Counted from the stretch's first letter, positions 10,795-33,080 are shown. The stretch is DNA of 64,000 nt from an uncultured Rickettsiales bacterium (GCA_964584075.1 CAZOYV010000001.1:25701-89700); one strand, 5' to 3'. The notes: generated by a model from the letters alone, not told the origin. Program-made: numbers and translations.

Positions 10795-11682
10795 ATGGCC
10801 CCCGCGGACGACGCCAGCGCCGGCACCTGGTTCTTCGCCACGGATCTGCATGGCGAGCTCGATCGCTACCGGTCGCTGCTCCGCGCCGTGCGCGCCGAGC
10901 GCCCCGCGGCGGTGCTGCTCGGCGGCGATCTGCTGCCGTCGTTCGCCGGCCAGCTGGCGTCCCTGGACCCGGCGCACCGCGACTTCGTCGGGGGGTACCT
11001 GATCCCCGAGTTCCTTGCGCTCCGCGACGATCTGGGCACCGACGCACCCGCCGTGCTGCTGATCCTGGGCAACGACGACGCCCGCATCGAGGAGGCGGCG
11101 TTCCTCCACGGCGCGGCGCAGGGGGCCTGGCGCTACGTCCACGACCGCCGCGTCGAGGTCGGCGGCGTGCCGGTCTACGGCTACGCGATGATCCCGCCGA
11201 CCCCGTTCCAGCTCAAGGACTGGGAGCGCTACGACGTGTCGCGGTTCGTCGACCCCGGCTGCATCCCGCCCACCGGCGGGCGGCGCACGGTCCCGGTCTC
11301 GGCGCGCGACCAGGAGTGGCGCACGATCCAGGAGGACCTGGTCCGCCTGGCCGGCGACGACGACCTGACGGACGCGGTGTTCCTGTTCCACTCGCCGCCG
11401 TACCGGACGGCGCTGGACCGCGCCGCGCTGGACGGCCAGGCCGTGGACCACGCGCCGCTGGACGTCCACGTCGGCAGCATCGCGATCCAGCGGTTCCTGA
11501 GGCGCCGCCAGCCGCGGGTCTCGCTGCACGGGCACGTGCACGAGGCGGCGCGGCTGACGGGTCGCTGGCAGGACCGCATCGGCGAGACCGTGTGCCTCGG
11601 TGCGGCCCACGACGGGCCCGAGCTGGCGCTGGTGCGGTTCGATCCGGCCGATCCGGGGTCGGCCACCCGCGAGCTGTGCTAG
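10795..11682 (+). CDS. Calcineurin-like metallophosphoesterase
   Basis: Motifs in order: ATDLHGELD, LGGDLL, ILGNDDA, FHSPPY and LHGHVHEAARL, which is the phosphoesterase signature order. Confidence 0.7.
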   Translation: MAPADDASAGTWFFATDLHGELDRYRSLLRAVRAERPAAVLLGGDLLPSFAGQLASLDPAHRDFVGGYLIPEFLALRDDLGTDAPAVLLILGNDDARIEEAAFLHGAAQGAWRYVHDRRVEVGGVPVYGYAMIPPTPFQLKDWERYDVSRFVDPGCIPPTGGRRTVPVSARDQEWRTIQEDLVRLAGDDDLTDAVFLFHSPPYRTALDRAALDGQAVDHAPLDVHVGSIAIQRFLRRRQPRVSLHGHVHEAARLTGRWQDRIGETVCLGAAHDGPELALVRFDPADPGSATRELC

Positions 11683-11722
11683 GTTCGGGATTCACCCCGA
11701 GGACGGGGCGGTGGGAGCCACG

Positions 11723-17000: not shown

Positions 17001-17274
17001 CGGTCTGGATCACCAGGTCGGCCTGCAGCCGCCACGGCGTGTGGGTGAACTCCCCGGAGCGATAGGTCTGCCCCTCGTAGCGGATCTCGGCCTGGCAGAC
17101 GTCGGGGTACTGCCAGCCCGGGGGGATCACCTTGACCGCCGCGGCGAGCAGGTCGTGGACCTTCATCTCGGGGCGGTTGATCAGCTCCTCGACCTCGTAC
17201 AGGCAGTTGAGCTCCTTGGCTCGCTCCTGCAGGGCGACGAGCAGCTTGTCCGCGGGCCGGCCGGTGTCAGTCAT
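14083..17274 (-). CDS. Multidomain paralogue with an N-terminal GAF-like domain, a PPDK_N ATP-grasp domain, the shared C-terminal module and a C-terminal minimal nucleotidyltransferase domain
   Basis: 1063 aa. GAF-like N-terminus (LNCLYEVEELINRPEM). GGKASGL...VIVRSSSLLEDRVGTAFSGKYKSLFL...DIEFAHDGEDLYLLQCRTQ. GPGRWGSRGDIKLGV...SFGTHFFQDL. C-terminal GFYVFGSTKNATAGPGSDIDLLIHV (an NTase-fold GS...DxD). It is convergent with 11723..14086, sharing a palindromic CCTAGG stop. Confidence 0.7.
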   Translation of the reverse strand: MTDTGRPADKLLVALQERAKELNCLYEVEELINRPEMKVHDLLAAAVKVIPPGWQYPDVCQAEIRYEGQTYRSGEFTHTPWRLQADLVIQTEPVGHVRVYYTEPRPREDQGPFLKEEIRLIKTIAQRLSHFMFYQELKEMRQDLDQVSVELETHRSGEWMAAVHLLRKSDRDLYLRIARKLLNHLFWTGCEDAGAWLDRGTQGSLDGEDGVGEVNAPGQTREADEAWLLTDEPFELATRCLTDDEILTRIQRWMVEDRANYFTKVLHAERSSLPEIADALRRYHHVVADVGELPRYTTAGLRVALIRKLLTEQLDFINVAKEYIGTNAFERILDRVVMPAESHGKLGGKASGLVLAHRILRKDPELSQETRVRVPLTWFVASSGLRQFIAYNDLEDVHEQKYKSIDEIRHDYPNIIQLFKRSRFPPELIKGMTVALAEFEGRPVIVRSSSLLEDRVGTAFSGKYKSLFLANLGSRQQRLAALLDAIAEVYASVFGPDPIEYRREHGLIDFNEEMGVLIQEVVGQQVGRYFLPAFAGVAFSHNEFRWSPRIRREDGLLRLVPGLGSRAVDRVADDYPVLVVPGQPTLRANTSVDEIVRYSPRKVDVIDLEEQRFRTIELTQLLREAGSQVPRLTDVYSVIDGDLLRKPVPLLTDPEEDDLVATFEGLTRDTPFVGQMGQILQRLQETMGKPVDIEFAHDGEDLYLLQCRTQSDADGGKPAPIPREVDDKNVLFTANRYVSNGWMPDLTHLVYVDPVAYGALGSRHEMQEVGRAVGKLNKLLPKRRFALLGPGRWGSRGDIKLGVSVTYSDINNTALLIEIARQKGSYVPDLSFGTHFFQDLVEARIRYLPLYPDEPENRFRERFLTRSPNLLAEMLPEYAALADVVHVLDVPACTEGKVLRVLMNADLDEAMGLLIEPDGVASEPPRETERANHHRDPAEFWRWRLQMAEQIAASLDPERFGVVGFYVFGSTKNATAGPGSDIDLLIHVRASDEQREHLALWLEGWSRSLAEMNYLRSGYRSDQLLDVHYVTDEDIAARTSWAVKIGAITDAARPLPMGGALRS

Positions 17275-19021
17275 CGTGGATCACGATCCCCCGTCCCGTG
17301 CGCCCGTCGGCCAGGACCCGCAGCGGCGCCGGCGTGCGCAGGTGGCGCACGTGGGCGGTCTCGGCGACGGCCGGCTGGTCCATCAGCCACGCGAAGTCGA
17401 TCCGGGTGCGGTCCCGCACCGACAGGTACAGCACGTGGAAGGCGATGAGGTTCTGGAAGAAGTGGGACCCCTGGCTGGGGTCGGGCTGCATGTTGGGCAG
17501 GGTCGCCTCGACGATCACCCGCGCGCCCTGGATCTGGCCGTAGTCCACGGGGATCCCGAGCCAGGGGTCGGAGCTGCCCCAGCGGCCGAAGCCGATCAGC
17601 AGGTAGGGCCGCCCGGCGTGCCGCAGCGCCACGTCGAGGCCCTCGATCTCGGCGGCGATCTCGCGGGTCGCGGCCGGGTCGAAGCGGTCGGGGCGGACCA
17701 GCACGACGTCCTCGATGTCCGCGAGCTCGCCGTGCCCCAGCGCGGCGTCGGAGGCCAGCACCACGCCGGGGCCGCGCATCAGCTCGTCGTCGATCTCGAC
17801 CGTCCCGTCGGCCACCGCCATCGGCCGGACCTGCAGGAACCCCAGCCGCGCGGGGAGGCCGCGCTTGGGGTGCAGGTCGGCGGCGAACTCGATCTCGACC
17901 GCGGTGCCGACGACCTCCTCGCAGCGCGCCAGCAGCCGGCGCACGACGTCGTTGAGCGGCACGTCGCGGAACAGCCGCAGCGGGGCGAAGTCGAGGACCC
18001 GCGGGCCCGGGTTGCCGATCCCGGGGACCACCGTGCCCTGGCCCGCGACGAAGGTCGACGCGACGTACTTGAGCACGTCGTCGTACTCCGCCTCGCGCAG
18101 CCCGGGGTGCAGCAGGTACTCGTCCTCGCGCACCGGATCGGGGGTCGGGGGGCGGCCCATGTTCACCGCCCAGAACCGGTTCTGGGTGTTCTTGATCAGG
18201 TCGCGGGGTCCCCCGTAGGGCATCGGCTTCTTGGGGTACGCCGGGGTGTAGGTCCAGCTGATCCCGCCGTCGACGATCGTCTTGCCCAGCCCCAGCGCCA
18301 GGTTGACCACGCCGTCCTCGGGCCTGGCGCGGCCCATCGGGTAGTAGTTGTAGGAGCGCGCGACCCCCGACAGCGTCGGGTAGAACCGGTCGCCGCGGCG
18401 CGTGCCGACCACCTCCTGGAGGATCACGGCCATCTTCTCGTCTCGCGGGTTGCGCCCGACGCGCTCGATGTAGCGCTGCGCGGCGCGGAACCAGGTCGAC
18501 GCCCAGACGAACTTGATCGCCTCCACCAGGCGGCGGAAGCGGGTGTCCGGCTCCGGCTGGTGGTTGGGGATCATCTTGGTCGCGTAGACCCCGGCGAACG
18601 GGTGGTGCAGGTCGTCCTCGAGCAGGCTCGAGGAGCGCACCGCCAGCGGGGTGTGCAGCCGCTGGCCGAGCGTGCGCAGGTCCCCCACCACCAGCGGGGG
18701 GAGCTCGCCGCGCTGGAAGGCGTGGGCGATGCGATCGTCCGGCTCGCCGGAGCGCAGCAGCCGGGACAGATCGTTGTGGGCCACGAACTGGTCGAACAGG
18801 TCGGTGCCCAGCACCGTGGCGGTCGGCACGAACAGCTCGAAGCCACCGCGGGCGGCCTCGTCGAGGGCGGGCAGGATCTCGTCGAGGACCAGCGCCAGGC
18901 TGCTGGCCTTGCCCCCCAGGCCGCCCCCCCCGATGCGCGTCAGCGCGGCCGGCGCGCCGCGGTGGTTGCGGTCGTAGACCGGGACATCGCGACCGCTCAG
19001 ACCCAGCCCCTCTCGCGGCAC
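17267..19021 (-). CDS. Third PPDK_N-domain paralogue (ATP-grasp plus shared C-terminal module); start uncertain
   Basis: GGGLGGKASSL...LAVRSSSLLEDDLHHPFAGVYATKMI...EIEFAADLHPKRGLPARLGFLQVRP...GFGRWGSSDPWLGIPV...SHFFQNL. The N-terminal about 570 aa of track ORF 17267..20395 overlaps gdhA in another frame and is rejected. The GTG at about 19021 is the first plausible in-frame start. The 3' end overlaps the next gene by ATGACTGA. Confidence 0.6.
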   Translation of the reverse strand: MPREGLGLSGRDVPVYDRNHRGAPAALTRIGGGGLGGKASSLALVLDEILPALDEAARGGFELFVPTATVLGTDLFDQFVAHNDLSRLLRSGEPDDRIAHAFQRGELPPLVVGDLRTLGQRLHTPLAVRSSSLLEDDLHHPFAGVYATKMIPNHQPEPDTRFRRLVEAIKFVWASTWFRAAQRYIERVGRNPRDEKMAVILQEVVGTRRGDRFYPTLSGVARSYNYYPMGRARPEDGVVNLALGLGKTIVDGGISWTYTPAYPKKPMPYGGPRDLIKNTQNRFWAVNMGRPPTPDPVREDEYLLHPGLREAEYDDVLKYVASTFVAGQGTVVPGIGNPGPRVLDFAPLRLFRDVPLNDVVRRLLARCEEVVGTAVEIEFAADLHPKRGLPARLGFLQVRPMAVADGTVEIDDELMRGPGVVLASDAALGHGELADIEDVVLVRPDRFDPAATREIAAEIEGLDVALRHAGRPYLLIGFGRWGSSDPWLGIPVDYGQIQGARVIVEATLPNMQPDPSQGSHFFQNLIAFHVLYLSVRDRTRIDFAWLMDQPAVAETAHVRHLRTPAPLRVLADGRTGRGIVIHDD

Positions 19022-21937: not shown

Positions 21938-24226
21938 ATGCCCTCTCCCGCGGCCCCCGAGCAGCGCGGCCACGGCTTCGGCACCGCACCGGTGTTCCTG
22001 GCCGCGATCAGCACGATCCTCGGTGCGATCCTGTTCCTGCGGTTCGGCTACGCCGTCGGCCACGTGGGGATGCTCGGGGCGTTCGCGATCATCCTGATCG
22101 CCCACGCGATCACGATCCCGACGGGGCTGGCGGTGGCGGAGATCGCCACCAACCTCAAGGTCGAGGGCGGCGGCGAGTACTACATCATCAGCCGCTCGTT
22201 CGGGCGCACCGTGGGGGCCGCGATCGGGATCTCGCTGTACCTCTCGCAGGCGGTCTCGGTGGCGTTCTACCTGATCGCGTTCTCCGAGGCGTTCCGGCCC
22301 CTGTTCCCGCTGGTCGAGGAGCACCTCGGGTTCACCCCCGACGTGCGGATGGTGGGCATCCCGGCCGTCGTGCTGCTGTCGGTGCTGATGCTGACCAAGG
22401 GCGCCGACCTGGGCGTGCGCGCGCTGTGGGTCGTGGCCTCGATCCTCGGGGTCTCGCTGCTGCTGTTCTTCCTGGGGTCGCCGACCCAGCCGGGGATCGA
22501 GCTGGACCTCACGGCGCGGACCGCGAACCCGGACCCGTTCTTCACGGTCTTCGCCATCGTGTTCCCGGCATTCACCGGGATGACGGCCGGCGTCGGCCTG
22601 TCGGGGGATCTGCGGAACCCGCGGCGATCGATCCCGCTGGGCACGATGCTGGGCACGCTGGTGGGGATGGCCACCTACATCGCGATCGTGTTCAAGATGA
22701 GCATCAGCGCCACGCCGGACGAGCTGGGCAACGACCCGTTCATCATGAGCAGGATCGCGCTGTGGGCCCCGGCGATCTTCATCGGCCTGGCGGCGGCCAC
22801 CGTCTCCTCGGCGATCGGCTCGATCCTGGTCGCGCCGCGGACCCTGCAGGCGCTGGCCCACGACGGGGTGTTCCCGGTACGGCGCGTCAACCGCCTGCTG
22901 GCCAGCGGCCGCGGCGAGGCCAACGAGCCGTTCGTCGCCACCGTGTTCACCGCGGCGCTGGCGCTGGTGTTCGTGGCGCTGGGCAGCGTCGACGTCGTCG
23001 CCCAGCTGATCTCGATGTTCTTCATGGTCACCTACGGCGCGCTGTGCGCGATCAGCTTCCTGGAGCACTTCGCGGGCAACCCGTCGTACCGGCCGACGTT
23101 CCGCTCCAAGTGGTACCTTTCGCTGATCGGCGCCGTGGCCTGCGGCGTGATGATGTGGCAGATGCAGCCGCTGTACGCCGTGGTGGCGGCGGTGGTGATG
23201 GCCGCCCTGTACCTGTGGATGAAGCGCACCATGAAGGGCGGCCGCGACCTGTCGGACATGGTCCAGGGGGTGCTGTTCCAGCTGACGCGCAAGCTGCAGG
23301 TGATGCTGCAGAAGAACCAGGCGTCGCTGTCGATGACGAGCTGGCGGCCTTCGTTCATCGCCATCTCGGCCCACTCGCTGACCCGGCTGGCGCCGTTCGA
23401 CCTGCTGCGCTGGATCTCCCACTACCACGGGTTCGGGACGTGGATCCACTTCGTCAAGGGGCCGCTGTCCGAGGAGCTCAACGACAAGGCGCGGGGGATC
23501 CTCGACAGGCTGATCCAGCAGATCCAGGCCAGCCGCGCGGCGCTGTACGTCGACACGATCATCTCGCCGAGCTTCATGACCGCGGTGGCCCAGATCGTCC
23601 AGATCCCCGGGATCTCCGGGCTGGACAACAACTCGATCCTGTTCGAGTTCCGCAAGGGCAAGGACGAGGAGATCGCCGACCTGCTGGTGGGTAGCAAGTT
23701 CGCCTCGGTGGCGGGGTTCAACATCTGCGTGCTGCGCAGCGCGGACCACCACTTCGGCTACAAGCGCACGATCCACATCTGGCTGCGCCCCGGCGACTAC
23801 CGCAACGCGTCGTTGATGATCCTGCTGGGCTACATCCTGATCGGCCACAAGGAGTGGAAGGGCGCCACGATCCAGCTCTACGCGGCGTTCACCGAGCGGG
23901 AGCTGGACCGCGGCGTGGCGCGGCTGAACACGCTGATCGGCCAGGGGCGGATCCCGATCTCGATCAACAGCGTGGAGTGGGTCCCGATCCCCGACGGCAC
24001 CGACTTCGACGAGATGGTCACCCGCCGCTCGACCGGCGCCGACCTGGTGATCACCGGCCTGTCGCTGTCCAAGATGCAGGCCGACGGCGGCGCGTTCCTG
24101 ACCGGCTTCGAGGGCATCGCGGACCTGCTGTTCGTGCGGGCAGGCCAGGAGATCCTGATCACCGCCGACGACGAGGAGGCGCCGCCGCCGGCCCCCACGG
24201 AGCCGATCCCGGACCCGCCCGGATAG
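21938..24226 (+). CDS. Cation-chloride cotransporter (SLC12/CCC)-like APC-superfamily transporter with a C-terminal cytoplasmic domain
   Basis: 762 aa. GEYYIISRSFGRTVGAAIGISLYLSQAVSVAFYLIAFSE closely parallels the NKCC/KCC motif GAYYLISRSLGPEFGG.IGL.F..ANAV.VAM. Twelve TM segments plus a roughly 330-aa C-terminal soluble domain, which is the SLC12 architecture. Confidence 0.65.
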   Translation: MPSPAAPEQRGHGFGTAPVFLAAISTILGAILFLRFGYAVGHVGMLGAFAIILIAHAITIPTGLAVAEIATNLKVEGGGEYYIISRSFGRTVGAAIGISLYLSQAVSVAFYLIAFSEAFRPLFPLVEEHLGFTPDVRMVGIPAVVLLSVLMLTKGADLGVRALWVVASILGVSLLLFFLGSPTQPGIELDLTARTANPDPFFTVFAIVFPAFTGMTAGVGLSGDLRNPRRSIPLGTMLGTLVGMATYIAIVFKMSISATPDELGNDPFIMSRIALWAPAIFIGLAAATVSSAIGSILVAPRTLQALAHDGVFPVRRVNRLLASGRGEANEPFVATVFTAALALVFVALGSVDVVAQLISMFFMVTYGALCAISFLEHFAGNPSYRPTFRSKWYLSLIGAVACGVMMWQMQPLYAVVAAVVMAALYLWMKRTMKGGRDLSDMVQGVLFQLTRKLQVMLQKNQASLSMTSWRPSFIAISAHSLTRLAPFDLLRWISHYHGFGTWIHFVKGPLSEELNDKARGILDRLIQQIQASRAALYVDTIISPSFMTAVAQIVQIPGISGLDNNSILFEFRKGKDEEIADLLVGSKFASVAGFNICVLRSADHHFGYKRTIHIWLRPGDYRNASLMILLGYILIGHKEWKGATIQLYAAFTERELDRGVARLNTLIGQGRIPISINSVEWVPIPDGTDFDEMVTRRSTGADLVITGLSLSKMQADGGAFLTGFEGIADLLFVRAGQEILITADDEEAPPPAPTEPIPDPPG

Positions 24227-24259
24227 CGGCCGGTCGCCGGGATCGCCCCCTCCCGGCGC

Positions 24260-24826
24260 TCACCCCCGTGGCAGATCCGGCTCCTCCAGCGGCACCGGGC
24301 AGATGTCGTGGCGCTGGCAGGTCGCGCAGCGCTCCCCGGACCACAGCGCGTCGTACTGCTCGAGGACCGCGTCGACCAGCGCGGGCGAGCGCGACCACAC
24401 CCCCCATTCGAAGTTGCGGCGGTGGCGCCCCTTGGCCCCCAGGCCGGCGCCGGTGAGGTTGGCGGAGCCCAGGTACAGGCGCTCCGCGTCGACCACCACC
24501 GCCTTGGCGTGCAGCCGCGGGCAGCGACGGATCACCAGCTGCGAGGGCAGCTCGCGGCGCAGCTCCTCCAGCGCCGCGCTGCTGGGCACCGAGGCGTGCA
24601 GCACGCGGACCTCGACGCCCCGCCCGGCGAGCTCGATCAGGTGCGGGATCACGGAGCGCGCCCGGCGACCGCCGGTGGGGACCCGCATCGCCTTGAAGTT
24701 GGCGGTGGCGATGGCCAGCGAGGCCGTCGCCTCGAGGATCCCGTCGAGCACGACCCGCTGCAGGTGCTCGTCGTCGACGACGAGCTGCGCGAAGCCGGAC
24801 GCTGCAGCCGGCGAGCGGGAGGTCAT
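24260..24826 (-). CDS. PLD-superfamily (single HKD motif, Nuc-like) protein
   Basis: HAKAVVVDAERLYLGSANLT equals HxKxxxxD(x6)GSxN. The track ORF starts at a TTG inside the repeat. The real ATG at about 24826 overlaps the upstream stop (ATGA) and sits 4 nt downstream of repeat copy 3. Confidence 0.6.
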   Translation of the reverse strand: MTSRSPAAASGFAQLVVDDEHLQRVVLDGILEATASLAIATANFKAMRVPTGGRRARSVIPHLIELAGRGVEVRVLHASVPSSAALEELRRELPSQLVIRRCPRLHAKAVVVDAERLYLGSANLTGAGLGAKGRHRRNFEWGVWSRSPALVDAVLEQYDALWSGERCATCQRHDICPVPLEEPDLPRG

Positions 24827-24830
24827 CGTT

Positions 24831-24859
24831 CGCAACTATACAACACGCGACTTGACCCC
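24831..24859 (-). repeat. Copy 3 (inverted) of the 29-nt element, ending 4 nt upstream of the ATG of the PLD-like gene
   Basis: The reverse complement of cgcaactatacaacacgcgacttgacccc equals GGGGTCAAGTCGCGTGTTGTATAGTTGCG. It is followed by aacgATG. Confidence 0.8.
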
Positions 24860-24887
24860 AACCCCCAAACCCAGCCGCCCGTTCTCG

Positions 24888-26096
24888 TCACCTCGAGCGA
24901 TCGTGGCCCCGGGGGAGGTACAGGCGCCGCCGGGTGAGGTAGCGGGGGCCGGCGTGCAGCGAGATCCCCGCCAGCATCTGCGCGGCGCGTATCGACTGGC
25001 GGTGGGGCAGGGGCTCGCCCAGCGCGGCGTGGAGGTACTCGAGGGTGTGGTTCACCGGCTTGCGGTAGCGACCGAGCAGCCGGGCCCCGGAGAGGGTCAG
25101 CAGGCACCCGGTGCAGTAGGTCACGACCTCGTCGCCGGGGGCGCGGTCGAGGGCCCGCGCGGCGCGCATCGAGGTCCGCGCCAGGTCCCGGAAGCTGTAG
25201 CGGTTGGCGCCGGCGGCGATCCCGCAGCACAGGCCGTGCTCCCGGCCCGGCTCGGTCTCGTGGACGGTCAGCCCGCAGCGCCGCAGCAGCGCCCGCTGGC
25301 GGTCCATGAACCCGGCGCCGAGCACCCGGCCGTGACACGAGTCGTGGACCACGACGCTGCCGGTCAGGGGGTGATCGAGCCGCAGCGCCCCGCGGTCGAG
25401 GCGCCGCTGCAGCCAGCGGTCGAAGGACGTGACGCGGAAGTCGAAGCGCGCGCCGAACTGCTCGGGCAGGATGTGGCGGAACATGTTGAAGCAGGCGGGG
25501 CAGGCGAACACCAGCTCGTCGAGCCCGCGGCCGGCGTAGAACCGCACCAGCCGCTCGGCGATCTGCGCCACGGTGTCCAGCGCGCCCATCCGGTAGTACA
25601 TCTCGCCACAGCAGGTGTCCCAGCTGCCCCACACGGGGAGCCCGGCGAACAGCCGGCCGCTGGCCAGCTGGGGCAGGGCGCACAGGTTGCACCCGGGGAA
25701 CAGCGCCGTCGCCGCCGGGGGCTCGGGCGTGTCCCACTGGCGCAGCAGGGCCCGCTCCTGCCGGCTGTAGCGCAGGCTCTTGCGGAAGTTGGGATCGCTC
25801 AGCGGCAGCAGGTACGACGCCCGGCTCGGGACGCCCTGCTGCTCGAGGCGGTAGTGCCACAGGTAGTGGATCCGCTCGTAGGGGTGGGCGTCGTGGGGGC
25901 AGAACGCGTTGCACGCGAAGCAGCTGATGCAGCGGCGCAGGACCTCGGTGTCGGTCGCGCGGCCGCGGTTGATCCTGCCGATCTCCGCGATCGCCTGGTC
26001 GCGGTCGAGATCCAGGTAGCGGCACTGCACGAGGCACTCGCCGCACTCGACGCAGCGGTCCCAGTGGAGCGCCTCGCGGAGCTGCTCGGGGATCAT
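24888..26096 (-). CDS. Fe-S oxidoreductase: 2x[4Fe-4S] ferredoxin motifs plus two CCG (Cys-rich) domains (HdrD/GlcF/GlpC-like), paralogue A
   Basis: True start MIPEQLREALHWDRCVECGECLVQC. The track ORF 24888..27479 is an upstream read-through overlapping paralogue B. CxxCxxC...CP twice; CCGEMYYRMG and CCGIAAG CCG-domain motifs. Confidence 0.65.
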   Translation of the reverse strand: MIPEQLREALHWDRCVECGECLVQCRYLDLDRDQAIAEIGRINRGRATDTEVLRRCISCFACNAFCPHDAHPYERIHYLWHYRLEQQGVPSRASYLLPLSDPNFRKSLRYSRQERALLRQWDTPEPPAATALFPGCNLCALPQLASGRLFAGLPVWGSWDTCCGEMYYRMGALDTVAQIAERLVRFYAGRGLDELVFACPACFNMFRHILPEQFGARFDFRVTSFDRWLQRRLDRGALRLDHPLTGSVVVHDSCHGRVLGAGFMDRQRALLRRCGLTVHETEPGREHGLCCGIAAGANRYSFRDLARTSMRAARALDRAPGDEVVTYCTGCLLTLSGARLLGRYRKPVNHTLEYLHAALGEPLPHRQSIRAAQMLAGISLHAGPRYLTRRRLYLPRGHDRSR

Positions 26097-27538
26097 CGCG
26101 CCTCCCGGGCGCCGCGCGAGCGCAGCCGCAGCCGCATCAGCCACCCGTAGAGGTCCGAGGAGCGGCGCAGGCCCCGGGTGACGACGAGCCGCTGGGGGCC
26201 GGGGCGCAGCAAGGTCGCCCGCAGCACCGCGGCCCAGCGCCGCAGGCTGCGGGCCTCGGCGGCCGCCACCGGGCGCGGCTCGATCCACGTCGCCGGGTCG
26301 AGGGGCGCGGGGTGGAAGCGGGCCCCGCCGGCGCCCTCGTCGAGCAGCAGCGCGGCGGCGACGGCCAGCACGTCCACGGCGCGCTGCCGGGCGCGGCGGA
26401 CCGGGTCGCCCCCTGCGGCGCGCTCGACCAGCTCCACCGGGTGCAGGATCTCCAGCGCGTCCCCGCCGAGGACCGCGGCGAGGTTGAGGAACAGGTAGCA
26501 CGCGGGGCAGGACGCCACGACCGCCTCGGCGCCCGCGGCGTGGGCCTCGTCCAGCCGCCGGCGCAGGCTGGCCAGCATGTAGGTCAGCGAGCGCCGCGGG
26601 CGGTCCGAGCCGGGCCCGTAGAGCGTCGGGATCGTCGCGGCCCAGCCGCAGCACAGGGTGCGGTCGCGGCAGTGCTCCATCTCCACCAGCGAGCCGCCGC
26701 AGGCGCGCACCACGTCCCGCACCGCGCCGTGCAGCCGGCCGCCGAGGTAGCGCGACATGCAGTGGTCGTGGACCGCGACGCGGCCGGTCTGCGGCGCGGT
26801 GACCTCGATCTCGCCGCGCTGCAGCCGGTCCCGCAGCCACTCGTCGAGCGTCCCGACCTCGACGTCGAACCGGGCGCCGTAGCGTTGCGGCAGGACCTCG
26901 GAGAGCATCGCCGCCTCGGCCGACATGAAGCACCACACCTTGCGCACGCCCATCCGCTGGAACGCCCGCTGCAGCAGCGGCGCGACCTGCGCGGTGTGGT
27001 CGAGCAGCCCCATCTTGTGGGTGTCGCCGCCGCAGCCCCACAGCCCCTCGGCGCCCGCGGTGTGCGGCCGCAGCGGGTCCAGGACGGTGGCCTGGCCGAG
27101 GTACGGCACCAGGTTGGCGTAGAACCCGGTGAGCAGGATCTCGTCGTGCGGGCGGTCGAGCGCCAGGCGCCAGCGGTCCAGCAGCGAGCGCTCGCCGGGA
27201 CCCATCAGGCACCGCACCCCGCTCCACAGGTTGCCCCGCTCGGTGGGCAGCACCAGCCGCGCCACGGGCGGCAACCCGCGGGCCCGCCCGTCCTCGAAGA
27301 ACCGCTGCAGCAGCAGCTCGTACGGGTCGGCCCGCTGCGGGCACAGCGCGTCGCACAGGTTGCAGGTGGTGCAGTAGCGGAACGCCTTGGAGCGCTCGAC
27401 GTCGCCGGCGATCAGCGCCTCGATGTCGCGCCGCGCCTCGGCCTCGGGCAGCCCCAGCACGGGGCATTCCATGAAACACAGCCCGCAGCGGTCGCAGCGC
27501 TCCTCGCGGAACCAGCGGAACCGTGTGTCGGCCGTCAC
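26093..27538 (-). CDS. Fe-S oxidoreductase with two 4Fe-4S motifs and two CCG domains, paralogue B
   Basis: MTADTRFRWFREERCDRCGLCFMECP...CTTCNLCDALCP...WGCGGDTHKMG...CCGWAAT. ATGA overlap with paralogue A. Confidence 0.65.
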   Translation of the reverse strand: MTADTRFRWFREERCDRCGLCFMECPVLGLPEAEARRDIEALIAGDVERSKAFRYCTTCNLCDALCPQRADPYELLLQRFFEDGRARGLPPVARLVLPTERGNLWSGVRCLMGPGERSLLDRWRLALDRPHDEILLTGFYANLVPYLGQATVLDPLRPHTAGAEGLWGCGGDTHKMGLLDHTAQVAPLLQRAFQRMGVRKVWCFMSAEAAMLSEVLPQRYGARFDVEVGTLDEWLRDRLQRGEIEVTAPQTGRVAVHDHCMSRYLGGRLHGAVRDVVRACGGSLVEMEHCRDRTLCCGWAATIPTLYGPGSDRPRRSLTYMLASLRRRLDEAHAAGAEAVVASCPACYLFLNLAAVLGGDALEILHPVELVERAAGGDPVRRARQRAVDVLAVAAALLLDEGAGGARFHPAPLDPATWIEPRPVAAAEARSLRRWAAVLRATLLRPGPQRLVVTRGLRRSSDLYGWLMRLRLRSRGAREAR

Positions 27539-27551
27539 CGCCGCCCCCCCC

Positions 27552-28766
27552 TCATGGATCCCACGGTCCCAGCGGCGGCAGGTGGAGGCGGCGGCGGGAC
27601 AGCAGCGCCGGCCCCTGGTGGCGGGTCACCCCGGCGAGCACCGTCGCGGCCCGGCGGCGCTTCTCGGCCATGCTCGGCACCGGCTCGCCGAGGGCCATCT
27701 GGAGCAGCTCCATCAGGTGGTACACCGGCTGCCGCGAGCGGGGATCGGCGAGCTGGCCGGTCGGCAGCATCTGGGCGCACCCGGCGCAGTAGGTCGCGAT
27801 CGCGTCGGCGCCGGTGCGGCGGGCCGAGGTCAGCGCCCGGACCGTCGCGCGGGTGATCTCGGCGGGGTGGAACGCCGAGCTGGGGCTGAACCCCCCGGCG
27901 ATCCCGCAGCACAGGGCGCGGTCCCCGTGCAGCGGCTGCTCGACGACGCGGACGCCGAGCCGCTCGAGCAGCGCCCGCGGCCGGTCGAGGAACTCCTGCC
28001 CGAACAGCTTGCCGTAGCACGACTCCTGGATCGTGACCGTCAGCTCCAGCCGGCGCCGGATCGTCAGCTCCCCGCGGTCGAGGCGCCGCAGCAGCCACGG
28101 CACGACGTGCTCCACCTCGGCGGGCAGCGTGACGCCGAACCGCGGCATCACGTGGCGCATCATGTTCAGCCCGGCGGTGCACGGCACGATCAGCCGCTCG
28201 ACCTGCAGCCGCTCGACGAACGCCACGAGCCGCTCGGCGGACTGCCGGACCCGGTCGAACAGCCCCATCCGGTAGTACGTCTCGCCGCAGCAGTCCGCCA
28301 GCGTGCCGCGGATCGTGACCCCGTCGAGGGCCCGCGTGCGCGCCAGGTACGGCGCGGTGATCCAGTTGCAGCCGGGGTACAGGATCTCCGCCGCCGGCGA
28401 GCGATCGGCCCAGCCGCGGACCATCGCCGCCTCGTCGGCCGGCAGCCGCGCCACCACGTACGACCGGAAGTTGTGCTCCTCGTGGGGCACGTAGTACCGG
28501 GCCCGGGCCGGGAGCCCGTCGCGGCGGATCGCCTCGCTCCAGCGGTCGAGGATCAGCTGGGTCGGGTTGGCCCCCTCGGGGCACCCGAGGTTGCACGCGA
28601 AGCAGCTCTGGCAGCGCTGCAGCACCGCCCGGGTGTCGCGGCCGTCCCGCAGCCGGCGCATCTCGTCCACCGCCTCGCCCACCGGCAGCCGCAGCACGGG
28701 GCAGCGGTGGAAGCACTCCCCGCAGAGGCGACAGCGGTCGGGGTCGAAGGCGGCGAACAGGTCCAT
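27552..28766 (-). CDS. Fe-S oxidoreductase with two 4Fe-4S motifs and two CCG domains, paralogue C
   Basis: MDLFAAFDPDRCRLCGECFHRCP...CQSCFACNLGCP...CCGETYYRMG...CCGIAGG. A 13-nt gap separates it from paralogue B. Confidence 0.65.
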   Translation of the reverse strand: MDLFAAFDPDRCRLCGECFHRCPVLRLPVGEAVDEMRRLRDGRDTRAVLQRCQSCFACNLGCPEGANPTQLILDRWSEAIRRDGLPARARYYVPHEEHNFRSYVVARLPADEAAMVRGWADRSPAAEILYPGCNWITAPYLARTRALDGVTIRGTLADCCGETYYRMGLFDRVRQSAERLVAFVERLQVERLIVPCTAGLNMMRHVMPRFGVTLPAEVEHVVPWLLRRLDRGELTIRRRLELTVTIQESCYGKLFGQEFLDRPRALLERLGVRVVEQPLHGDRALCCGIAGGFSPSSAFHPAEITRATVRALTSARRTGADAIATYCAGCAQMLPTGQLADPRSRQPVYHLMELLQMALGEPVPSMAEKRRRAATVLAGVTRHQGPALLSRRRLHLPPLGPWDP

Positions 28767-28843
28767 CCGGTCTCGGCCGCCCCGCCTCGTCGTCCCCCGC
28801 GGGGAAGCCCCTCCTGGCTGGCCACGATACCACGTCGCGCGCG

Positions 28844-30061
28844 GTGGTCGACTGTTGCCCGCCGGATCGATACGATTCCGGGTACCGACCCCGGCAAGAC
28901 CTCGGCGACCCGAAGCGAGAGAGCGAACAAGTGGACACCCTCGAGAAGCTGATCGAGATCCGCGAGCAGTACCTGGGCAAGGACCACCCGACCCTCGCCC
29001 ACCTCCGCGAGGCCGCCCGCCAGGCCGAGCTCTCGGCCAGCGCGCCGCACCACGCGCCCCCGGCGCCCGGGCCCGGGGGGCCGGTCCCCGAGTCGCAGGA
29101 CGGCTACCACTTCCCGCTCTACGAGGGCCACCCCCACGCCTTCTGGTACGCCGAGTGGTGGTACCTCAACTTCATCGACCCCGCCTCGGGCCGGGCCGGG
29201 ATCGTCGCGATGGAGACGCTCAACCCCGGCAGCGTCGGGGTCCCCGGCGCCTGCGCGACGACCACCGTGGTGTACGACCCGGCGCGCGGCAAGCCGATGA
29301 CGACCCTCGACCCCCACTGTCTTGTGCAGTGGGCGGCGTCCACCGAGAAGGCCGACGTCACCGCCGCCGACGACATCCTGCGCGTGCTCGACGACGGGAC
29401 CTACTGGCTGCGCGCCCGCACCGCCAACGGCCGCGCCTCGTTCGACCTGAAGTACACCCAGGCCGCCTCGCCCCAGTTCCTCGGCGACAACGCCAGCCTG
29501 CCGGGCACCTGGGAGCACATGAGCTGGCTGGTGTGGATGCCCCACGCCCGGGTCAGCGGCACGTTCACCTTCGACGGGGTGACCACCGAGCTGCACGACG
29601 TCCCCGGCTACCACGACCACAACTGGGGGACGTGGCGCTCCACCGAGCGGATGTGGGTCTGGGCCCAGTTCGCCTCGCCCACCGAGGACCTGGCGTTCGT
29701 CGTGCCGCCCGACCTGACCTTCACCGGGGTCAAGGGCTACCTGCGCTACCACGGCACCGAGATGTTCTTCTCGCCGCAGAACATGCGGTACGAGCCCCGC
29801 GACTGGAAGCACTGGGAGGTGTTCTGGAGGTACCCGATGGCGGCGTCGCTGCGCTGCGTCGACGACACCGGCGAGTACAAGCTGGAGGTCGACTGGCAGG
29901 TCGAGGAGAACGCCACGGTGTGGAAGTCGATCCTGCTGATCTTCGAGCAGCGGACCCGGTTCCAGGGGACGCTGTACCGCGCGGACGGCCAGGGTGGCTG
30001 GACCGTGCTGAAGGAGATCGACGAGGAGGGGTTCAGCGAGTACACCAACGCCTGGGTCTGA
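28844..30061 (+). CDS. Hypothetical protein, possibly CrtC/AttH-like (lipocalin-fold hydratase family); assignment weak
   Basis: Motifs HAFWYAEWWYLNF and PGYHDHNWGTW are reminiscent of the hydroxyneurosporene-synthase/AttH family. An alternative start GTG at about 28931 is preceded by gagag. Confidence 0.4.
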   Translation: MVDCCPPDRYDSGYRPRQDLGDPKRESEQVDTLEKLIEIREQYLGKDHPTLAHLREAARQAELSASAPHHAPPAPGPGGPVPESQDGYHFPLYEGHPHAFWYAEWWYLNFIDPASGRAGIVAMETLNPGSVGVPGACATTTVVYDPARGKPMTTLDPHCLVQWAASTEKADVTAADDILRVLDDGTYWLRARTANGRASFDLKYTQAASPQFLGDNASLPGTWEHMSWLVWMPHARVSGTFTFDGVTTELHDVPGYHDHNWGTWRSTERMWVWAQFASPTEDLAFVVPPDLTFTGVKGYLRYHGTEMFFSPQNMRYEPRDWKHWEVFWRYPMAASLRCVDDTGEYKLEVDWQVEENATVWKSILLIFEQRTRFQGTLYRADGQGGWTVLKEIDEEGFSEYTNAWV

Positions 30062-32174: not shown

Positions 32175-33080
32175 ATGGCGCTCATGAGCAAGTCCCGGAC
32201 AACGTCCCTGTGGCGCGGGCTGGGTCGCTTCCTGGAGTCCGACGCCGGCGCCGACCTGGCCGAGATGGCGGGCGGCGTGGTCAACCGGCTCGGAGCCCGG
32301 ACCGCGCCGGTGATGCGCGGCGAGATCCCGTGGAGCCCGCTGGCCAAGCCGCTCGCCGAGTGCCGCGTGGCGGTGGTCTCGACCGCCGGCTTCCACCGCT
32401 CCACGGACGAGCCGTTCGACGTCGACGCCGCCCTGGGCGACCCCAGCTTCCGCACGATCCCGTCCGACGTCGATCTCGCCGACCTGAGGGTGACCCACAC
32501 CCACTACTCGCACCGCTACGTCGACCGGGACCCCAACGTGCTGATGCCCCTGGACCGCCTCCGCGAGCTGGAGCGGGCCGGCGTGTTCCAGCTCGCCCCG
32601 CGGTTCTTCGCCTTCGGGTTCGCCGGGACGATCACCTCGGCGTTCGTCGAGCCCCCGGACGGCACCGCCCACCAGGTGGCCCGCAGGCTGCGCGACGACG
32701 GCGCCGACATCGTCCTGCTGATCCCTGCGTGACCGCTGTGCAACCGGGCCGGTGGCCTGGTCACGAGGACGGCGGAGGCGTACGGCCTGACCACCGTGGA
32801 CCTGTCGATCAACCGCGGGATCACCGAGCGCATCGGCGCGCCCCGCGGCGTGTTCGTGCGCTTCCCCCACGGCGCCTCGCTGGGCGAGCCCGGGGCGATC
32901 GACCAGCAGATGACCGTCCTGCGCGACCTGCTGTGGGCGGTGCAGGACCTGCGGGAGCCCGGGAGGATCATCGAGCCCGGCCACCGCTGGCGGCGCTCCC
33001 GCTACGCGCCGGTGGACCCGGCGTCGTTCCAGCGCGAGCGGCCGTTCGAGCGCGACGGCCCGGGGAACGGTCGACCGTGA
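32175..33080 (+). CDS. PrdB/GrdB-family (proline/glycine reductase component B-like) selenoprotein with an in-frame TGA (Sec) at 32730-32732
   Basis: Track ORFs 32175..32732 and 32796..33080 are in the same frame, separated only by one TGA, with no other stops. Alignment to PrdB as I recall it: VAVVSTAGFH~VALVTAAGVH; FRTIPSDVDLADLRVTHTHYS~FRVIPGDASVNDMMVSHGGYD; MPLDRLRELERAG~FPIDRLHELAAEG; DIVLLIPA-U-PLCNRAG~DAVLLTAG-U-GTCHRSA (the Sec-x-x-Cys active site). Confidence 0.75.
32744..32760 (+). promoter_or_regulatory. Putative SECIS hairpin for the PrdB-like gene
   Basis: Begins 11 nt after the UGA. ccgGGCC-ggu-GGCCugg forms a 7-bp stem (one G.U) with a G/U-containing apical loop, matching the bacterial SECIS spacing and loop rule. 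Confidence 0.5.

What the first reader, a model, noticed from the sequence alone, without database searches (positions are those of the whole stretch)
24888..28766. Three tandem paralogues of a 2x[4Fe-4S] + 2xCCG-domain oxidoreductase subunit without partner subunits
Genes C, B and A (about 404, 481 and 402 aa) are head to tail on the minus strand with 13-nt and ATGA-overlap junctions. All share an N-terminal W/F-x-DRC-x-x-CG-x-C motif and CCG (Cys-Cys-Gly) domains like HdrD, GlcF, GlpC and LutA. Those proteins normally work with flavoprotein or dehydrogenase partners, and none is encoded nearby. A tandem triplication of a stand-alone CCG Fe-S protein, immediately upstream of a PLD-like gene served by the repeat element, is atypical and has no assigned substrate.
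Basis: partly seen in the sequence, partly recalled or inferred. Interest (0 to 1): 0.5.

Follow-up and report, generated by a model that had tools for sequence, protein, structure and literature searches.

The report
Conserved three-paralogue HdrD-like iron-sulfur operon
The three neighbouring iron-sulfur genes are real, but they are not a local triplication: they are one copy of an ancient, self-contained three-gene module found in uncultured anaerobic bacteria and archaea, related to heterodisulfide reductase subunit HdrD and with no known substrate.

Summary
Three head-to-tail genes on the minus strand are A (27552-28766, 404 aa), B (26093-27538, 481 aa) and C (24888-26096, 402 aa). The junctions are a 13-nt gap and an ATGA overlap. 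Each protein has an N-terminal 2x[4Fe-4S] ferredoxin domain and CCG domains that pass Pfam thresholds.

The reading as a "tandem triplication" does not hold. A, B and C are only 33-42% identical. Each belongs to its own monophyletic orthologue family, and the families are co-located (AB, BA, ABC, BAC, CBA and others) in about 60 of 83 related loci. These loci come from Desulfobacterota, Dehalococcoidia, Actinomycetota, Spirochaetota, Bacillota, Hadarchaeota and Ca. Methanolliviera, all of them MAGs.

The families differ in a conserved way. The second CCG motif is intact in all three. The first is complete or lacks one Cys in C, always lacks that Cys (the HdrB Cys81 equivalent) in A, and is lost in B.

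No partner gene is conserved next to the cassette. The PLD-like gene is an unrelated neighbour with its own promoter-like repeat. No curated equivalog model (GlpC, GlcF, LdhH, TfrB, DsrK, HmcF, TmcB, HdrB/C) is reached.

My best reading is a stand-alone hetero-oligomeric HdrD-type Fe-S oxidoreductase with a non-catalytic B subunit. The substrate is unknown. Interest is moderate.

The parts
27552..28766 (-). Gene A (404 aa): HdrD-like Fe-S protein, first gene of the operon
   Evidence: ORF. Pfam CCG 48.7 bits plus Fer4 dicluster models. Belongs to a family of 62 orthologues.
28569..28748 (-). A: HdrC-like 2x[4Fe-4S] ferredoxin domain (residues 7-66; Cys12/15/18/22 and Cys52/55/58/62)
   Evidence: The 8 Cys are essentially invariant across 62 family members (7 in all 62, Cys12 in 61).
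28167..28379 (-). A: first CCG motif with 4 Cys (Cys133, Cys159-160, Cys196). The fifth Cys is replaced by Gly in the whole family.
   Evidence: The missing residue aligns with HdrB Cys81 (PMC13083937).
27765..28037 (-). A: second CCG motif, complete (Cys250, 286, 287, 327, 330)
   Evidence: Pfam CCG residues 244-334. Invariant in the family.
26093..27538 (-). Gene B (481 aa): HdrD-like Fe-S protein with a degenerate first CCG motif and a C-terminal helical extension
   Evidence: AlphaFold2 model with pLDDT 92.
27329..27508 (-). B: 2x[4Fe-4S] ferredoxin domain (residues 11-70)
   Evidence: The 8 Cys are invariant in 81 family members.
26909..27136 (-). B: relic of the first CCG motif (TGFY / WGCGGD / CFMSAEA). 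The cluster ligands are lost, but the replacement residues are conserved in the family.
26486..26779 (-). B: second CCG motif, complete (Cys260, 296, 297, 344, 347)
   Evidence: Aligns to the C-terminal CCG of HdrB and of EtfD.
26096..26392 (-). B-specific C-terminal extension of about 100 aa, predicted as three helices
   Evidence: Helices 383-401, 426-443 and 448-480 in the model, mostly pLDDT >= 88. Absent from A and C.
24888..26096 (-). Gene C (402 aa): HdrD-like Fe-S protein with both CCG motifs complete
25887..26060 (-). C: 2x[4Fe-4S] ferredoxin domain (residues 13-70)
25476..25700 (-). C: first CCG motif (Cys136, 162, 163, 199, 202). Cys202 varies in the family: Cys in 25 of 42 close homologues, Gly in the rest.
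25092..25355 (-). C: second CCG motif, complete (Cys254, 290, 291, 328, 331)
28767..28843 (.). 77-nt divergent intergenic region upstream of A, the presumed operon promoter region (not demonstrated)
   Evidence: No sigma-70 consensus match was found.

Best explanation
A, B and C are the three subunits of one self-contained, cytoplasmic, all-iron-sulfur oxidoreductase of the HdrD type. An HdrD-type protein has an HdrC-like 2x[4Fe-4S] domain fused to HdrB-like tandem CCG domains. The three genes are co-transcribed and translationally coupled.

Each subunit contributes two cubane clusters as an electron wire and one intact CCG-2 cluster. The first CCG site has diverged between subunits. C keeps an HdrB-like pair of CCG sites, so it is the candidate catalytic site, probably for thiol/disulfide-type chemistry. 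A keeps a four-Cys first site that lacks the substrate-displaceable bridging Cys. B has lost the first site and gained a helical C-terminal extension, so under an Hdr-type mechanism it cannot be catalytic and most likely acts as relay or scaffold.

Electrons would enter or leave through the ferredoxin-like domains, from a diffusible carrier or from flavoprotein dehydrogenases encoded elsewhere.

What is shown: domain content, ligand patterns, family structure, conserved co-location, lack of a conserved partner, and the HdrB/EtfD-like fold of B. What is inferred: physical assembly, which clusters are bound, the division of labour, the direction of electron flow and the substrate.
For: Gene junctions suggest translational coupling. 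In the window they are a 13-nt gap and an ATGA overlap. In relatives they are 1-4-nt overlaps or gaps of 16 nt or less.

The three families are each monophyletic. A and C are sisters and B branches outside them. A long branch separates the whole clade from a GlcF-like outgroup.

Co-location is widespread. Among 83 loci from at least 7 phyla, including 2 archaeal lineages, the architectures are ABC 20, AB 17, BA 15, BAC 4, AABC 2, CBA 2 and CAB 1.

A, B and C are each other's nearest relatives. A B-family profile finds only 109 proteins at E<=1e-30 among 1.84 billion cluster representatives, and these are A-, B- and C-like proteins.

Ligand patterns are conserved within each family.

The Cys missing from A, and from many C proteins, aligns with HdrB Cys81. 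I counted this from the alignment to HdrB chain 8rvv_B. PMC13083937 describes Cys81 as the bridging Cys displaced by substrate, and describes Hdr catalysis as needing both noncubane clusters.

The B model has pLDDT 92 and pTM 0.92. Its best Foldseek hits in the PDB are HdrB, EtfD and LutA.

No operon partner is conserved among 64 co-directional neighbours or around B-only loci.
Against: No physical evidence for a complex was obtained, and no multimer prediction was possible. C occurs alone in at least one genome (L002). B occurs alone in 20 loci, so the subunits may also work separately or in other combinations. The fifth Cys of the first CCG site of C is evolutionarily labile, which weakens the claim that C is the HdrB-like catalytic subunit. 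Many CCG proteins (EtfD, GlpC, GlcF) only relay electrons and are not catalytic. Nothing in the window indicates a donor, an acceptor or a thiol cofactor.
Confidence: 0.45

Rival explanations
1. The cassette is a soluble electron-acceptor and relay module for flavoprotein dehydrogenases encoded elsewhere, such as acyl-CoA dehydrogenase/ETF or GlcD-like 2-hydroxyacid dehydrogenases. It would be a membrane-free counterpart of EtfD, EMO, GlcF or GlpC and would perform no substrate chemistry itself.
For: The closest solved sequence relative is mycobacterial EtfD, 9ojn (E=9e-9 with C alone; 4e-14 with the C-family profile). EtfD wires ETF to menaquinone (PMC13083937). The most recurrent neighbours within 7 kb of related cassettes are acyl-CoA dehydrogenase (14 loci in 5 lineages, some co-directional and adjacent, such as L006 and L087), enoyl-CoA hydratase (9), acyl-CoA ligase (8), thiolase with a DUF35-type protein (7) and FAD_binding_4 oxidases (6, including Hadarchaeota L027). 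Glycyl-radical enzymes lie nearby in L064, L079 and L016.
Against: No partner is conserved. Most cassettes, including all five from the window's own clade, have unrelated flanks. No ETF genes appeared among the operon neighbours or the neighbours of B-only loci. Acyl-CoA dehydrogenases are abundant in these genomes, so by my rough estimate the enrichment is only about 2-3 fold. There is no membrane domain or heme-b subunit to pass electrons to a quinone. The window has no such genes in the ORFs tested.
Confidence: 0.25
2. This is the first reader's view: three redundant copies of one stand-alone enzyme, produced by tandem duplication in this lineage, each working alone.
For: All three share one architecture and lie in tandem. 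DNA-level paralogy can be detected.
Against: Identity is only 33-42%. Each copy has orthologues at 45-75% identity in other phyla, which is more similar than the copies are to each other. Each family is monophyletic. The arrangement is conserved across Bacteria and Archaea. Loss of the first CCG site in B is conserved across the B family.
Confidence: 0.04
3. The cassette is a peripheral-membrane quinone reductase, like GlpC or the type-E succinate dehydrogenase subunit SdhE. It would attach to the membrane through amphipathic C-terminal helices.
For: CCG proteins without transmembrane helices serve this role in GlpABC and in type-E SQR (my knowledge of those systems, not tested here). All three proteins have basic, partly hydrophobic C-terminal tails, and B has an extra helical extension.
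Against: No dehydrogenase partner is encoded alongside. Several host lineages (Hadarchaeota, Ca. Methanolliviera, many subsurface Dehalococcoidia) are, to my knowledge, not known for quinone-based respiration; I did not test this. The C-terminal extension of B is modelled with high confidence as packed helices and not as a free amphipathic anchor.
Confidence: 0.1
4. The cassette is functionally tied to the adjacent PLD-like nuclease or to mobile and defence elements, as an accessory or defence-island module.
For: The PLD-like gene is 52 nt downstream and weakly resembles DrmC and MkoB. In the window's clade the flanks include PemK, HepT/MNT, Fic, a TIR-domain protein and an integrase.
Against: A, B and C match no PADLOC model. 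The PLD gene is absent from every other cassette context. It also has its own promoter-like repeat. The variable flanks are as well explained by the cassette sitting in variable regions and moving horizontally.
Confidence: 0.03

Closest known systems
HdrD, the catalytic subunit of membrane-bound heterodisulfide reductase HdrDE, and the 'soluble HdrD-type' proteins of sulfate reducers such as hdrD1-D4 of Desulfobacterium autotrophicum (PMC2702500)
   Same: A single polypeptide with an HdrC-like 2x[4Fe-4S] domain followed by HdrB-like tandem CCG motifs, and no transmembrane part. C has the full Cys complement.
   Different: No HdrE cytochrome b gene is present. The proteins come as three co-evolving paralogues instead of one. 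A and B have family-specific degradation of the first CCG site. The hosts are mostly bacteria that are not known to use CoM-S-S-CoB.
HdrB/HdrC of the soluble HdrABC complex (PDB 5ODC, 8RVU)
   Same: The B model's best structural match is HdrB (Foldseek E=4e-7). The N-termini match HdrC and the second CCG motif matches the C-terminal CCG of HdrB.
   Different: The two parts are fused instead of being two subunits. No HdrA flavoprotein or MvhD is nearby. NCBIfam scores are far below the cutoffs (HdrB 26 against 345; HdrC 24-27 against 350, and 18 against 160 for the TIGR03290 model).
EtfD (Rv0338c/IspQ family; PDB 9OJN) and related ETF:quinone oxidoreductases of the HdrD-like type
   Same: It is the best sequence match among solved structures. 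The order of ferredoxin and CCG domains is the same.
   Different: EtfD has five transmembrane helices and a heme b, and its first CCG site has the pattern C...C(T)...CxxC, which binds a linear [3Fe-4S] cluster (PMC13083937). A and C have C...CC...C(xxG/C). None of the three has a membrane domain.
GlpC, GlcF, LutA, LdhH, TfrB, DsrK, HmcF and TmcB, which are CCG-domain subunits of dehydrogenase or respiratory complexes
   Same: They share CCG domains, and most also share the ferredoxin domain. LutA is a Foldseek match.
   Different: All equivalog scores are far below their cutoffs. The defining partner genes (GlpAB, GlcDE, LutBC, DsrMJOP and so on) are absent from the operon and from the window ORFs tested.
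sHdr-type complexes that carry two paralogous HdrB/HdrC pairs (HdrC1B1-A-HdrC2B2)
   Same: They are a precedent for paralogous HdrBC-type modules working together in one complex. This rests on my knowledge and was not tested here.
   Different: Those complexes contain an HdrA flavoprotein and use unfused B and C subunits. This cassette has three fused subunits and no flavoprotein.

Membership tests
Pfam CCG (PF02754) cysteine-rich domain proteins | Match to PF02754 above the gathering score | tested here: met
   A scores 48.7, B 25.5 and C 52.2 bits against a cutoff of 20.6.
HdrD-type architecture (HdrC-like plus HdrB-like fusion) | N-terminal 2x CxxCxxCxxxC dicluster domain | tested here: met
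   All 8 Cys are present in A, B and C and are essentially invariant in their families.
HdrD-type architecture (HdrC-like plus HdrB-like fusion) | Two complete CCG motifs (C-X31-39-CC-X35-36-CxxC) per polypeptide | tested here: inconclusive
   Met in window C. A lacks the last Cys of motif 1. B has lost motif 1. Motif 2 is complete in all three.
HdrDE heterodisulfide reductase | Adjacent HdrE (cytochrome b membrane subunit) | tested here: not met
   No such gene flanks the operon in the window or among 64 co-directional neighbours in related loci.
HdrDE heterodisulfide reductase | Reduction of CoM-S-S-CoB | not testable with these tools
   This is an enzymatic property.
HdrABC (HdrB, HdrC) | NCBIfam equivalog cutoffs (TIGR03288 HdrB 345; NF041779 HdrC 350; TIGR03290 HdrC 160) | tested here: not met
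   HdrB model: 25.8 (A). HdrC models: 23.7 (A), 26.7 (C) and 18.2 (B).
GlpC (anaerobic glycerol-3-phosphate dehydrogenase subunit C) | NF008369 cutoff of 278 bits, and adjacent glpAB | tested here: not met
   Scores are 46.0, 26.4 and 42.5 bits. No GlpA/GlpB-type flavoprotein is present in the window ORFs tested.
GlcF (glycolate oxidase Fe-S subunit) | NF008434 cutoff of 333 bits, and adjacent glcDE (FAD_binding_4) | tested here: not met
   Scores are 29.8, 16.3 and 17.0 bits. No FAD_binding_4 gene is present in the window ORFs tested. Such genes lie near the cassette in only 6 related loci.
LutA (LutABC lactate utilisation) | CCG-only protein (no ferredoxin domain) encoded with LutB and LutC | tested here: not met
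   All three proteins carry a ferredoxin domain. No LutB/LutC-type neighbours are present. Similarity is structural only.
EtfD / HdrD-like ETF:quinone oxidoreductase | N-terminal multi-helix membrane domain with heme b | tested here: not met
   The proteins start 10-15 residues before the first ferredoxin Cys. The B model has no membrane helices before the Fe-S domains. The alignment to 9ojn covers only its soluble part.
EtfD / HdrD-like ETF:quinone oxidoreductase | First CCG site of the type C...C(T)...CxxC (ligands of the linear [3Fe-4S] cluster) | tested here: not met
   A and C keep CC and lose, or vary, the last Cys. B has no site (PMC13083937).
DsrK / HmcF / TmcB / LdhH / TfrB | NCBIfam equivalog cutoffs (400, 750, 735, 800, 385) | tested here: not met
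   The best scores are 21.6, 30.2, 31.8, 64.7 and 40.9 bits.
Known anti-phage defence systems (PADLOC) | Match to any PADLOC model | tested here: not met
   A, B and C have 0 hits. Only the neighbouring PLD-like protein hits MkoB and DrmC models, weakly.

The most novel reading that the evidence does not exclude
The A-B-C cassette defines a previously undescribed class of soluble, flavin-free, heterotrimeric CCG enzyme, an 'HdrD3'. It would carry up to 11 Fe-S clusters, and gene duplication would have split the roles: C catalytic, A with an open-site first CCG cluster, B as relay and scaffold. It would carry out a ferredoxin-linked thiol/disulfide, or other small-molecule, redox reaction that matters in the energy metabolism of uncultured subsurface anaerobes, including alkane-degrading archaea.
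Probability: 0.3. Interest if true: 0.6.

Novelty: new variant of a known kind. Interest (0 to 1): 0.45.

Why it matters
CCG-domain Fe-S proteins sit at key points of anaerobic energy metabolism: heterodisulfide reduction, DsrC reduction, and the transfer of electrons from ETF, lactate and glycerol-3-phosphate oxidation to quinone. This cassette appears to be a compact and distinct branch of that superfamily. It has only about a hundred 50%-identity clusters among 1.84 billion representatives. All members recovered here come from metagenome assemblies, and all that carry a name are annotated generically as '(Fe-S)-binding protein' or 'Fe-S oxidoreductase'. It spans Bacteria and Archaea.

If the three paralogues form one flavin-free complex with divided roles, that would be a new way of building a CCG enzyme. 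It would also give a test case for how the unusual noncubane cluster sites change after duplication: one site intact, one missing the bridging Cys, one lost. For genome annotation, the practical point is that these three genes should be treated as one unit and not as redundant copies.

Tried and rejected
1. Exact look-ups of the window's A and C proteins in the contig index found nothing. B was found only on a 3-kb Logan contig. The source organism therefore stays unidentified. It has about 72% GC and a sigma-54 activator. My reading is that the sigma-54 activator argues against Actinomycetota.

2. Cluster look-up gave no names or accessions.

3. A Foldseek search against AFDB50 was not available.

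4. I looked for a conserved partner in three ways. I clustered all ORFs within 7 kb of the cassette in about 80 loci. I ran Pfam on 64 co-directional contiguous neighbours. I ran Pfam on 102 neighbours of B-only loci. No universal partner appeared and no ETF genes were seen.

5. Corrinoid-protein and URO-D methyltransferase genes lie upstream of the cassette only in two related Spirochaetota loci (L049, L059). I rejected this as a general link.

6. Glycyl-radical enzymes lie near the cassette in 3 loci from 3 phyla. That is too few to draw a conclusion.

7. The PADLOC scan was negative for A, B and C.

8. Literature searches for a description of tandem or triple HdrD-like proteins found only general mentions of soluble HdrD-type genes (PMC2702500) and nothing on this triad.

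9. Promoter and terminator scans of 24000-29200 gave nothing useful.

10. I did not use the second structure-prediction job. A monomer model of A or C would not have tested assembly, and concatenated chains are not accepted by the tool.

Full report
**1. Observation**

The three ORFs exist as described, all on the minus strand.
- A is 27552-28766 (404 aa, ATG start).
- B is 26093-27538 (481 aa, GTG start). It begins 13 nt after the A stop.
- C is 24888-26096 (402 aa). Its ATG overlaps the B stop as ATGA.

Pfam places a 4Fe-4S dicluster domain at each N-terminus and a CCG domain (PF02754) above its gathering score in all three. Pairwise identity is 42% between A and C and 33% between A and B. 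Paralogy can also be detected at DNA level around the Cys-coding segments (families D2, D10 and D11).

A PLD-like gene follows C after 52 nt. A 405-aa gene with only a sub-threshold Tocopherol_cycl match lies divergently upstream. I tested 33 window ORFs against Pfam. None is a flavoprotein dehydrogenase, an ETF subunit or a cytochrome b. The one refinement is that only C has two complete CCG motifs.

**2. What it is**

Homologues of C, B and A are all roughly 390-410 or 460-500 aa long. Those that carry a name are called '(Fe-S)-binding protein' or 'Fe-S oxidoreductase' (a few carry transferred labels such as 'glycolate oxidase iron-sulfur subunit'), and every organism-labelled source name is a MAG.

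The closest relatives of the window genes carry the same three-gene unit with the same gene order and the same tight junctions:
- the P0003 contig, with genes of 380, 481 and 395 aa;
- L001, with 407, 504 and 395 aa;
- L088 and L089, with 409, 480 and 395 aa, both junctions being 4-nt overlaps;
- L090, with 380, 483 and 395 aa.

The flanking genes differ in every case. They include PAD_porph, PemK, HepT/MNT, Fic, a TIR-domain protein, an integrase and an S41 peptidase. The PLD-like gene and the 405-aa gene are therefore not part of the unit.

A scan of one genome per GTDB species with a B-family alignment returned 80 loci. I scored all ORFs in these loci against A, B and C. Each ORF has a clear best match. 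The architectures, including the earlier loci, are:

| Architecture | Loci |
|---|---|
| ABC | 20 |
| AB | 17 |
| BA | 15 |
| BAC | 4 |
| AABC | 2 |
| CBA | 2 |
| CAB | 1 |
| B alone | 20 |
| A alone | 1 |
| C alone | 1 |

Some loci are cut short by contig ends.

The hosts are Deltaproteobacteria/Thermodesulfobacteriota, Dehalococcoidia/Chloroflexota, Actinomycetota (including Geothermincolia), Spirochaetota, Planctomycetales, Bacillota/Syntrophomonadaceae, Hadarchaeota and Ca. Methanolliviera. All are MAGs.

In an NJ tree of 172 family members plus a GlcF-like outgroup, A (62 sequences), B (81) and C (29) are each monophyletic. A and C are sisters. A long branch separates the whole clade from the outgroup. 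A B-family profile searched against 1.84 billion cluster representatives finds only 109 proteins at E<=1e-30, and then falls off into general CCG proteins (955 at 1e-10). The triad is therefore a small, distinct branch of the CCG superfamily, and the three families are each other's closest relatives.

In at least 10 of the B-only loci, the same assembly also holds an AB or ABC cassette. I compared the contig accession prefixes with the architectures. These B-only genes are therefore extra B paralogues and not a different system.

**3. Family-specific cluster sites**

Across the families the eight ferredoxin Cys and the five Cys of the second CCG motif are essentially invariant; the only exception seen is Cys12 of A, replaced by Ser in 1 of 62 members. 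The first CCG motif differs by family:
- **C family.** C...CC...C is invariant. The fifth Cys (Cys202 in the window protein) is Cys in 25 of 42 close homologues and Gly in the others.
- **A family.** C...CC...C is invariant and the fifth position is never Cys in any of 62 members (Gly in the window protein).
- **B family.** The ligands are replaced by the conserved motifs TGFY, WGCGGD and CFMxAEA.

I counted residues in the alignment to M. marburgensis HdrB. The N-terminal motif of HdrB is CC41/42 and C78xxC81. The position lost in A, and variable in C, therefore corresponds to HdrB Cys81. PMC13083937 summarises the HdrB structural work. It describes Cys81 and Cys234 as bridging ligands of the catalytic irons that are displaced by substrate, and says that the disulfide is cleaved between the two noncubane clusters.

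EtfD shows a different degeneration, C...C(T)...CxxC, which binds a linear [3Fe-4S] cluster. The A/C pattern therefore matches neither HdrB nor EtfD.

B has a C-terminal extension of about 100 aa. An AlphaFold2 model built from 36 family members has mean pLDDT 92 and pTM 0.92, and it predicts three helices in that extension. The best Foldseek matches in the PDB are HdrB (8rwn_B, E=4e-7), EtfD (9ojn) and a LutA model. B thus keeps the HdrB-like double-domain fold even though it has lost the ligands of one site.

**4. Neighbourhood and function**

No gene is consistently co-directional and contiguous with the cassette. Among 64 such neighbours the commonest families are PALP (6, all from syntenic Dehalococcoidia) and acyl-CoA dehydrogenase (3).

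Within 7 kb the most recurrent gene families are the following:

| Family | Loci |
|---|---|
| Acyl-CoA dehydrogenase | 14 (Actinomycetota, Deltaproteobacteria, Dehalococcoidia, Syntrophomonadaceae, Methanolliviera) |
| Enoyl-CoA hydratase | 9 |
| AMP-dependent ligase | 8 |
| Thiolase with a ChsH2/DUF35-type protein | 7 |
| FAD_binding_4 oxidase | 6 |

Glycyl-radical enzymes are nearby in three loci from three phyla. This points loosely towards anaerobic acyl-CoA catabolism, but the association is weak. Neighbours of the B-only loci are heterogeneous. No ETF genes were seen.

A, B and C hit no defence model. None of the curated NCBIfam equivalogs is approached. This covers GlpC, GlcF, LdhH, TfrB, DsrK, HmcF, TmcB, HdrB and HdrC.

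**5. Mechanism: most likely reading**

The cassette most likely encodes one soluble hetero-oligomeric Fe-S oxidoreductase.

What is shown:
- tight and often overlapping junctions;
- conserved co-location across domains of life;
- three co-diverging families;
- invariant ligands for six cubane clusters and three CCG-2 clusters per ABC set;
- graded, family-specific loss of the first CCG site;
- an HdrB/EtfD-like fold;
- absence of a conserved flavoprotein, cytochrome or membrane partner.

What is inferred:
- The subunits assemble.
- B cannot perform Hdr-type two-cluster chemistry, so it is a relay or scaffold, and its extension may mediate contacts.
- C, and possibly A, holds the reactive site.
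- The ferredoxin-like domains connect to a diffusible low-potential carrier or to flavoprotein dehydrogenases encoded elsewhere.

The substrate is unknown. I give this reading about 0.45.

The main rival, at about 0.25, is a purely electron-relaying module for ETF/acyl-CoA or 2-hydroxyacid dehydrogenases, in effect a membrane-free EtfD or GlcF analogue. A peripheral quinone reductase (about 0.1), redundant recent duplicates (about 0.04) and a defence-linked role (about 0.03) are less likely, for the reasons given in the rival entries.

**6. Comparison with known systems**

The closest relatives are HdrD and the 'soluble HdrD-type' proteins noted in sulfate reducers (PMC2702500), HdrBC, and EtfD. 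The cassette resembles them in domain order and in most ligands.

It differs in four ways:
- It is a conserved triad of paralogues.
- It lacks the partners HdrE, HdrA, ETF, GlpAB, GlcDE and LutBC.
- It has no membrane domain.
- Its first-site Cys patterns are its own.

My literature searches found no description of this triad. That library is limited, so this is absence of evidence only.

**7. Verdict**

The feature is real and correctly located. The proteins are correctly typed as ferredoxin-plus-CCG proteins. The feature is misread as a local triplication linked to the PLD gene. It is a member of an uncharacterised, conserved module known so far only from MAGs, and is best classed as a new variant of a known kind.

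Interest is moderate (0.45). A specialist in anaerobic bioenergetics would find the conserved three-paralogue, flavin-free design and the graded decay of the cluster site worth an experiment. No function can be assigned from sequence, and the protein class itself is familiar.

Noticed in passing
window 32175-33080 (+): A GRDB-family ORF (PF07355) is interrupted by an in-frame TGA at 32730-32732, followed by Pro-Leu-Cys (…LLIPA-U-PLCNRAGG…). The same frame continues to 33080. It looks like a selenocysteine-containing protein of the GrdB/PrdB type with a UxxC motif. The best NCBIfam partial hit for A and C is 'diclust_near_Sec' (NF045663), but a 405-aa gene and a Ser/Thr kinase gene separate this ORF from the cassette.
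   Followed up: partly
window 5259-5287 (+), 5472-5500 (+), 24831-24859 (-): An exact 29-nt repeat, GGGGTCAAGTCGCGTGTTGTATAGTTGCG, occurs three times. For its 16-nt core, about 0.04 matches are expected by chance. Two copies end 2-4 nt before an ATG: the PLD-like gene at 24826, and a signal-peptide-like ORF at 5503. The repeat contains a TATAGT box, so it looks like a promoter for leaderless transcripts.
   Followed up: partly
window 24260-24835 (-): The listed TTG start of the PLD-like ORF (24835) lies inside the repeat. The real start is more likely the ATG at 24826 (MTSRSPAAAS…). The protein is a single-HKD, Nuc-like PLD with weak similarity to DrmC and MkoB.
   Followed up: partly
window 11558-14086 (+), 14083-17280 (-), 17267-18991 (-): Three neighbouring genes each carry a PPDK_N (PEP/pyruvate-binding, ATP-grasp-like) domain. 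One also has a C-terminal nucleotidyltransferase (NTP_transf_2) domain. This is an unusual local cluster of paralogues.
   Followed up: no
window 6357-6738 (+): Six tandem copies of a 48-nt unit (family D1) lie at the start of a 1347-codon open frame (6400-10443) that has no Pfam match.
   Followed up: no
L064:5519-9134, L079:72-1688, L016:4581-6947: Glycyl-radical enzymes (PFL-like plus Gly_radical) lie within a few kb of the cassette in Ca. Methanolliviera (with an activase), a Syntrophomonadaceae MAG (with CoA-transferases, MmgE/PrpD, acyl-CoA dehydrogenase and aldehyde:ferredoxin oxidoreductase) and a Dehalococcoidia MAG. This may hint at a link to anaerobic hydrocarbon or dicarboxylate catabolism.
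   Followed up: partly
L034/L074, L037/L080, L038/L070, L042/L078, L043/L073, L044/L075, L046/L011, L052/L071, L058/L053, L062/L068: Orphan B-only genes occur in the same assemblies that also hold an AB or ABC cassette, mostly Actinomycetota. B therefore has extra stand-alone paralogues, and their neighbourhoods are heterogeneous.
   Followed up: partly
L049:6634-8662, L059:837-2733: In two Spirochaetota loci, a corrinoid protein (B12-binding) and a URO-D-type methyltransferase are co-directional and directly upstream of A-B-C.
   Followed up: partly
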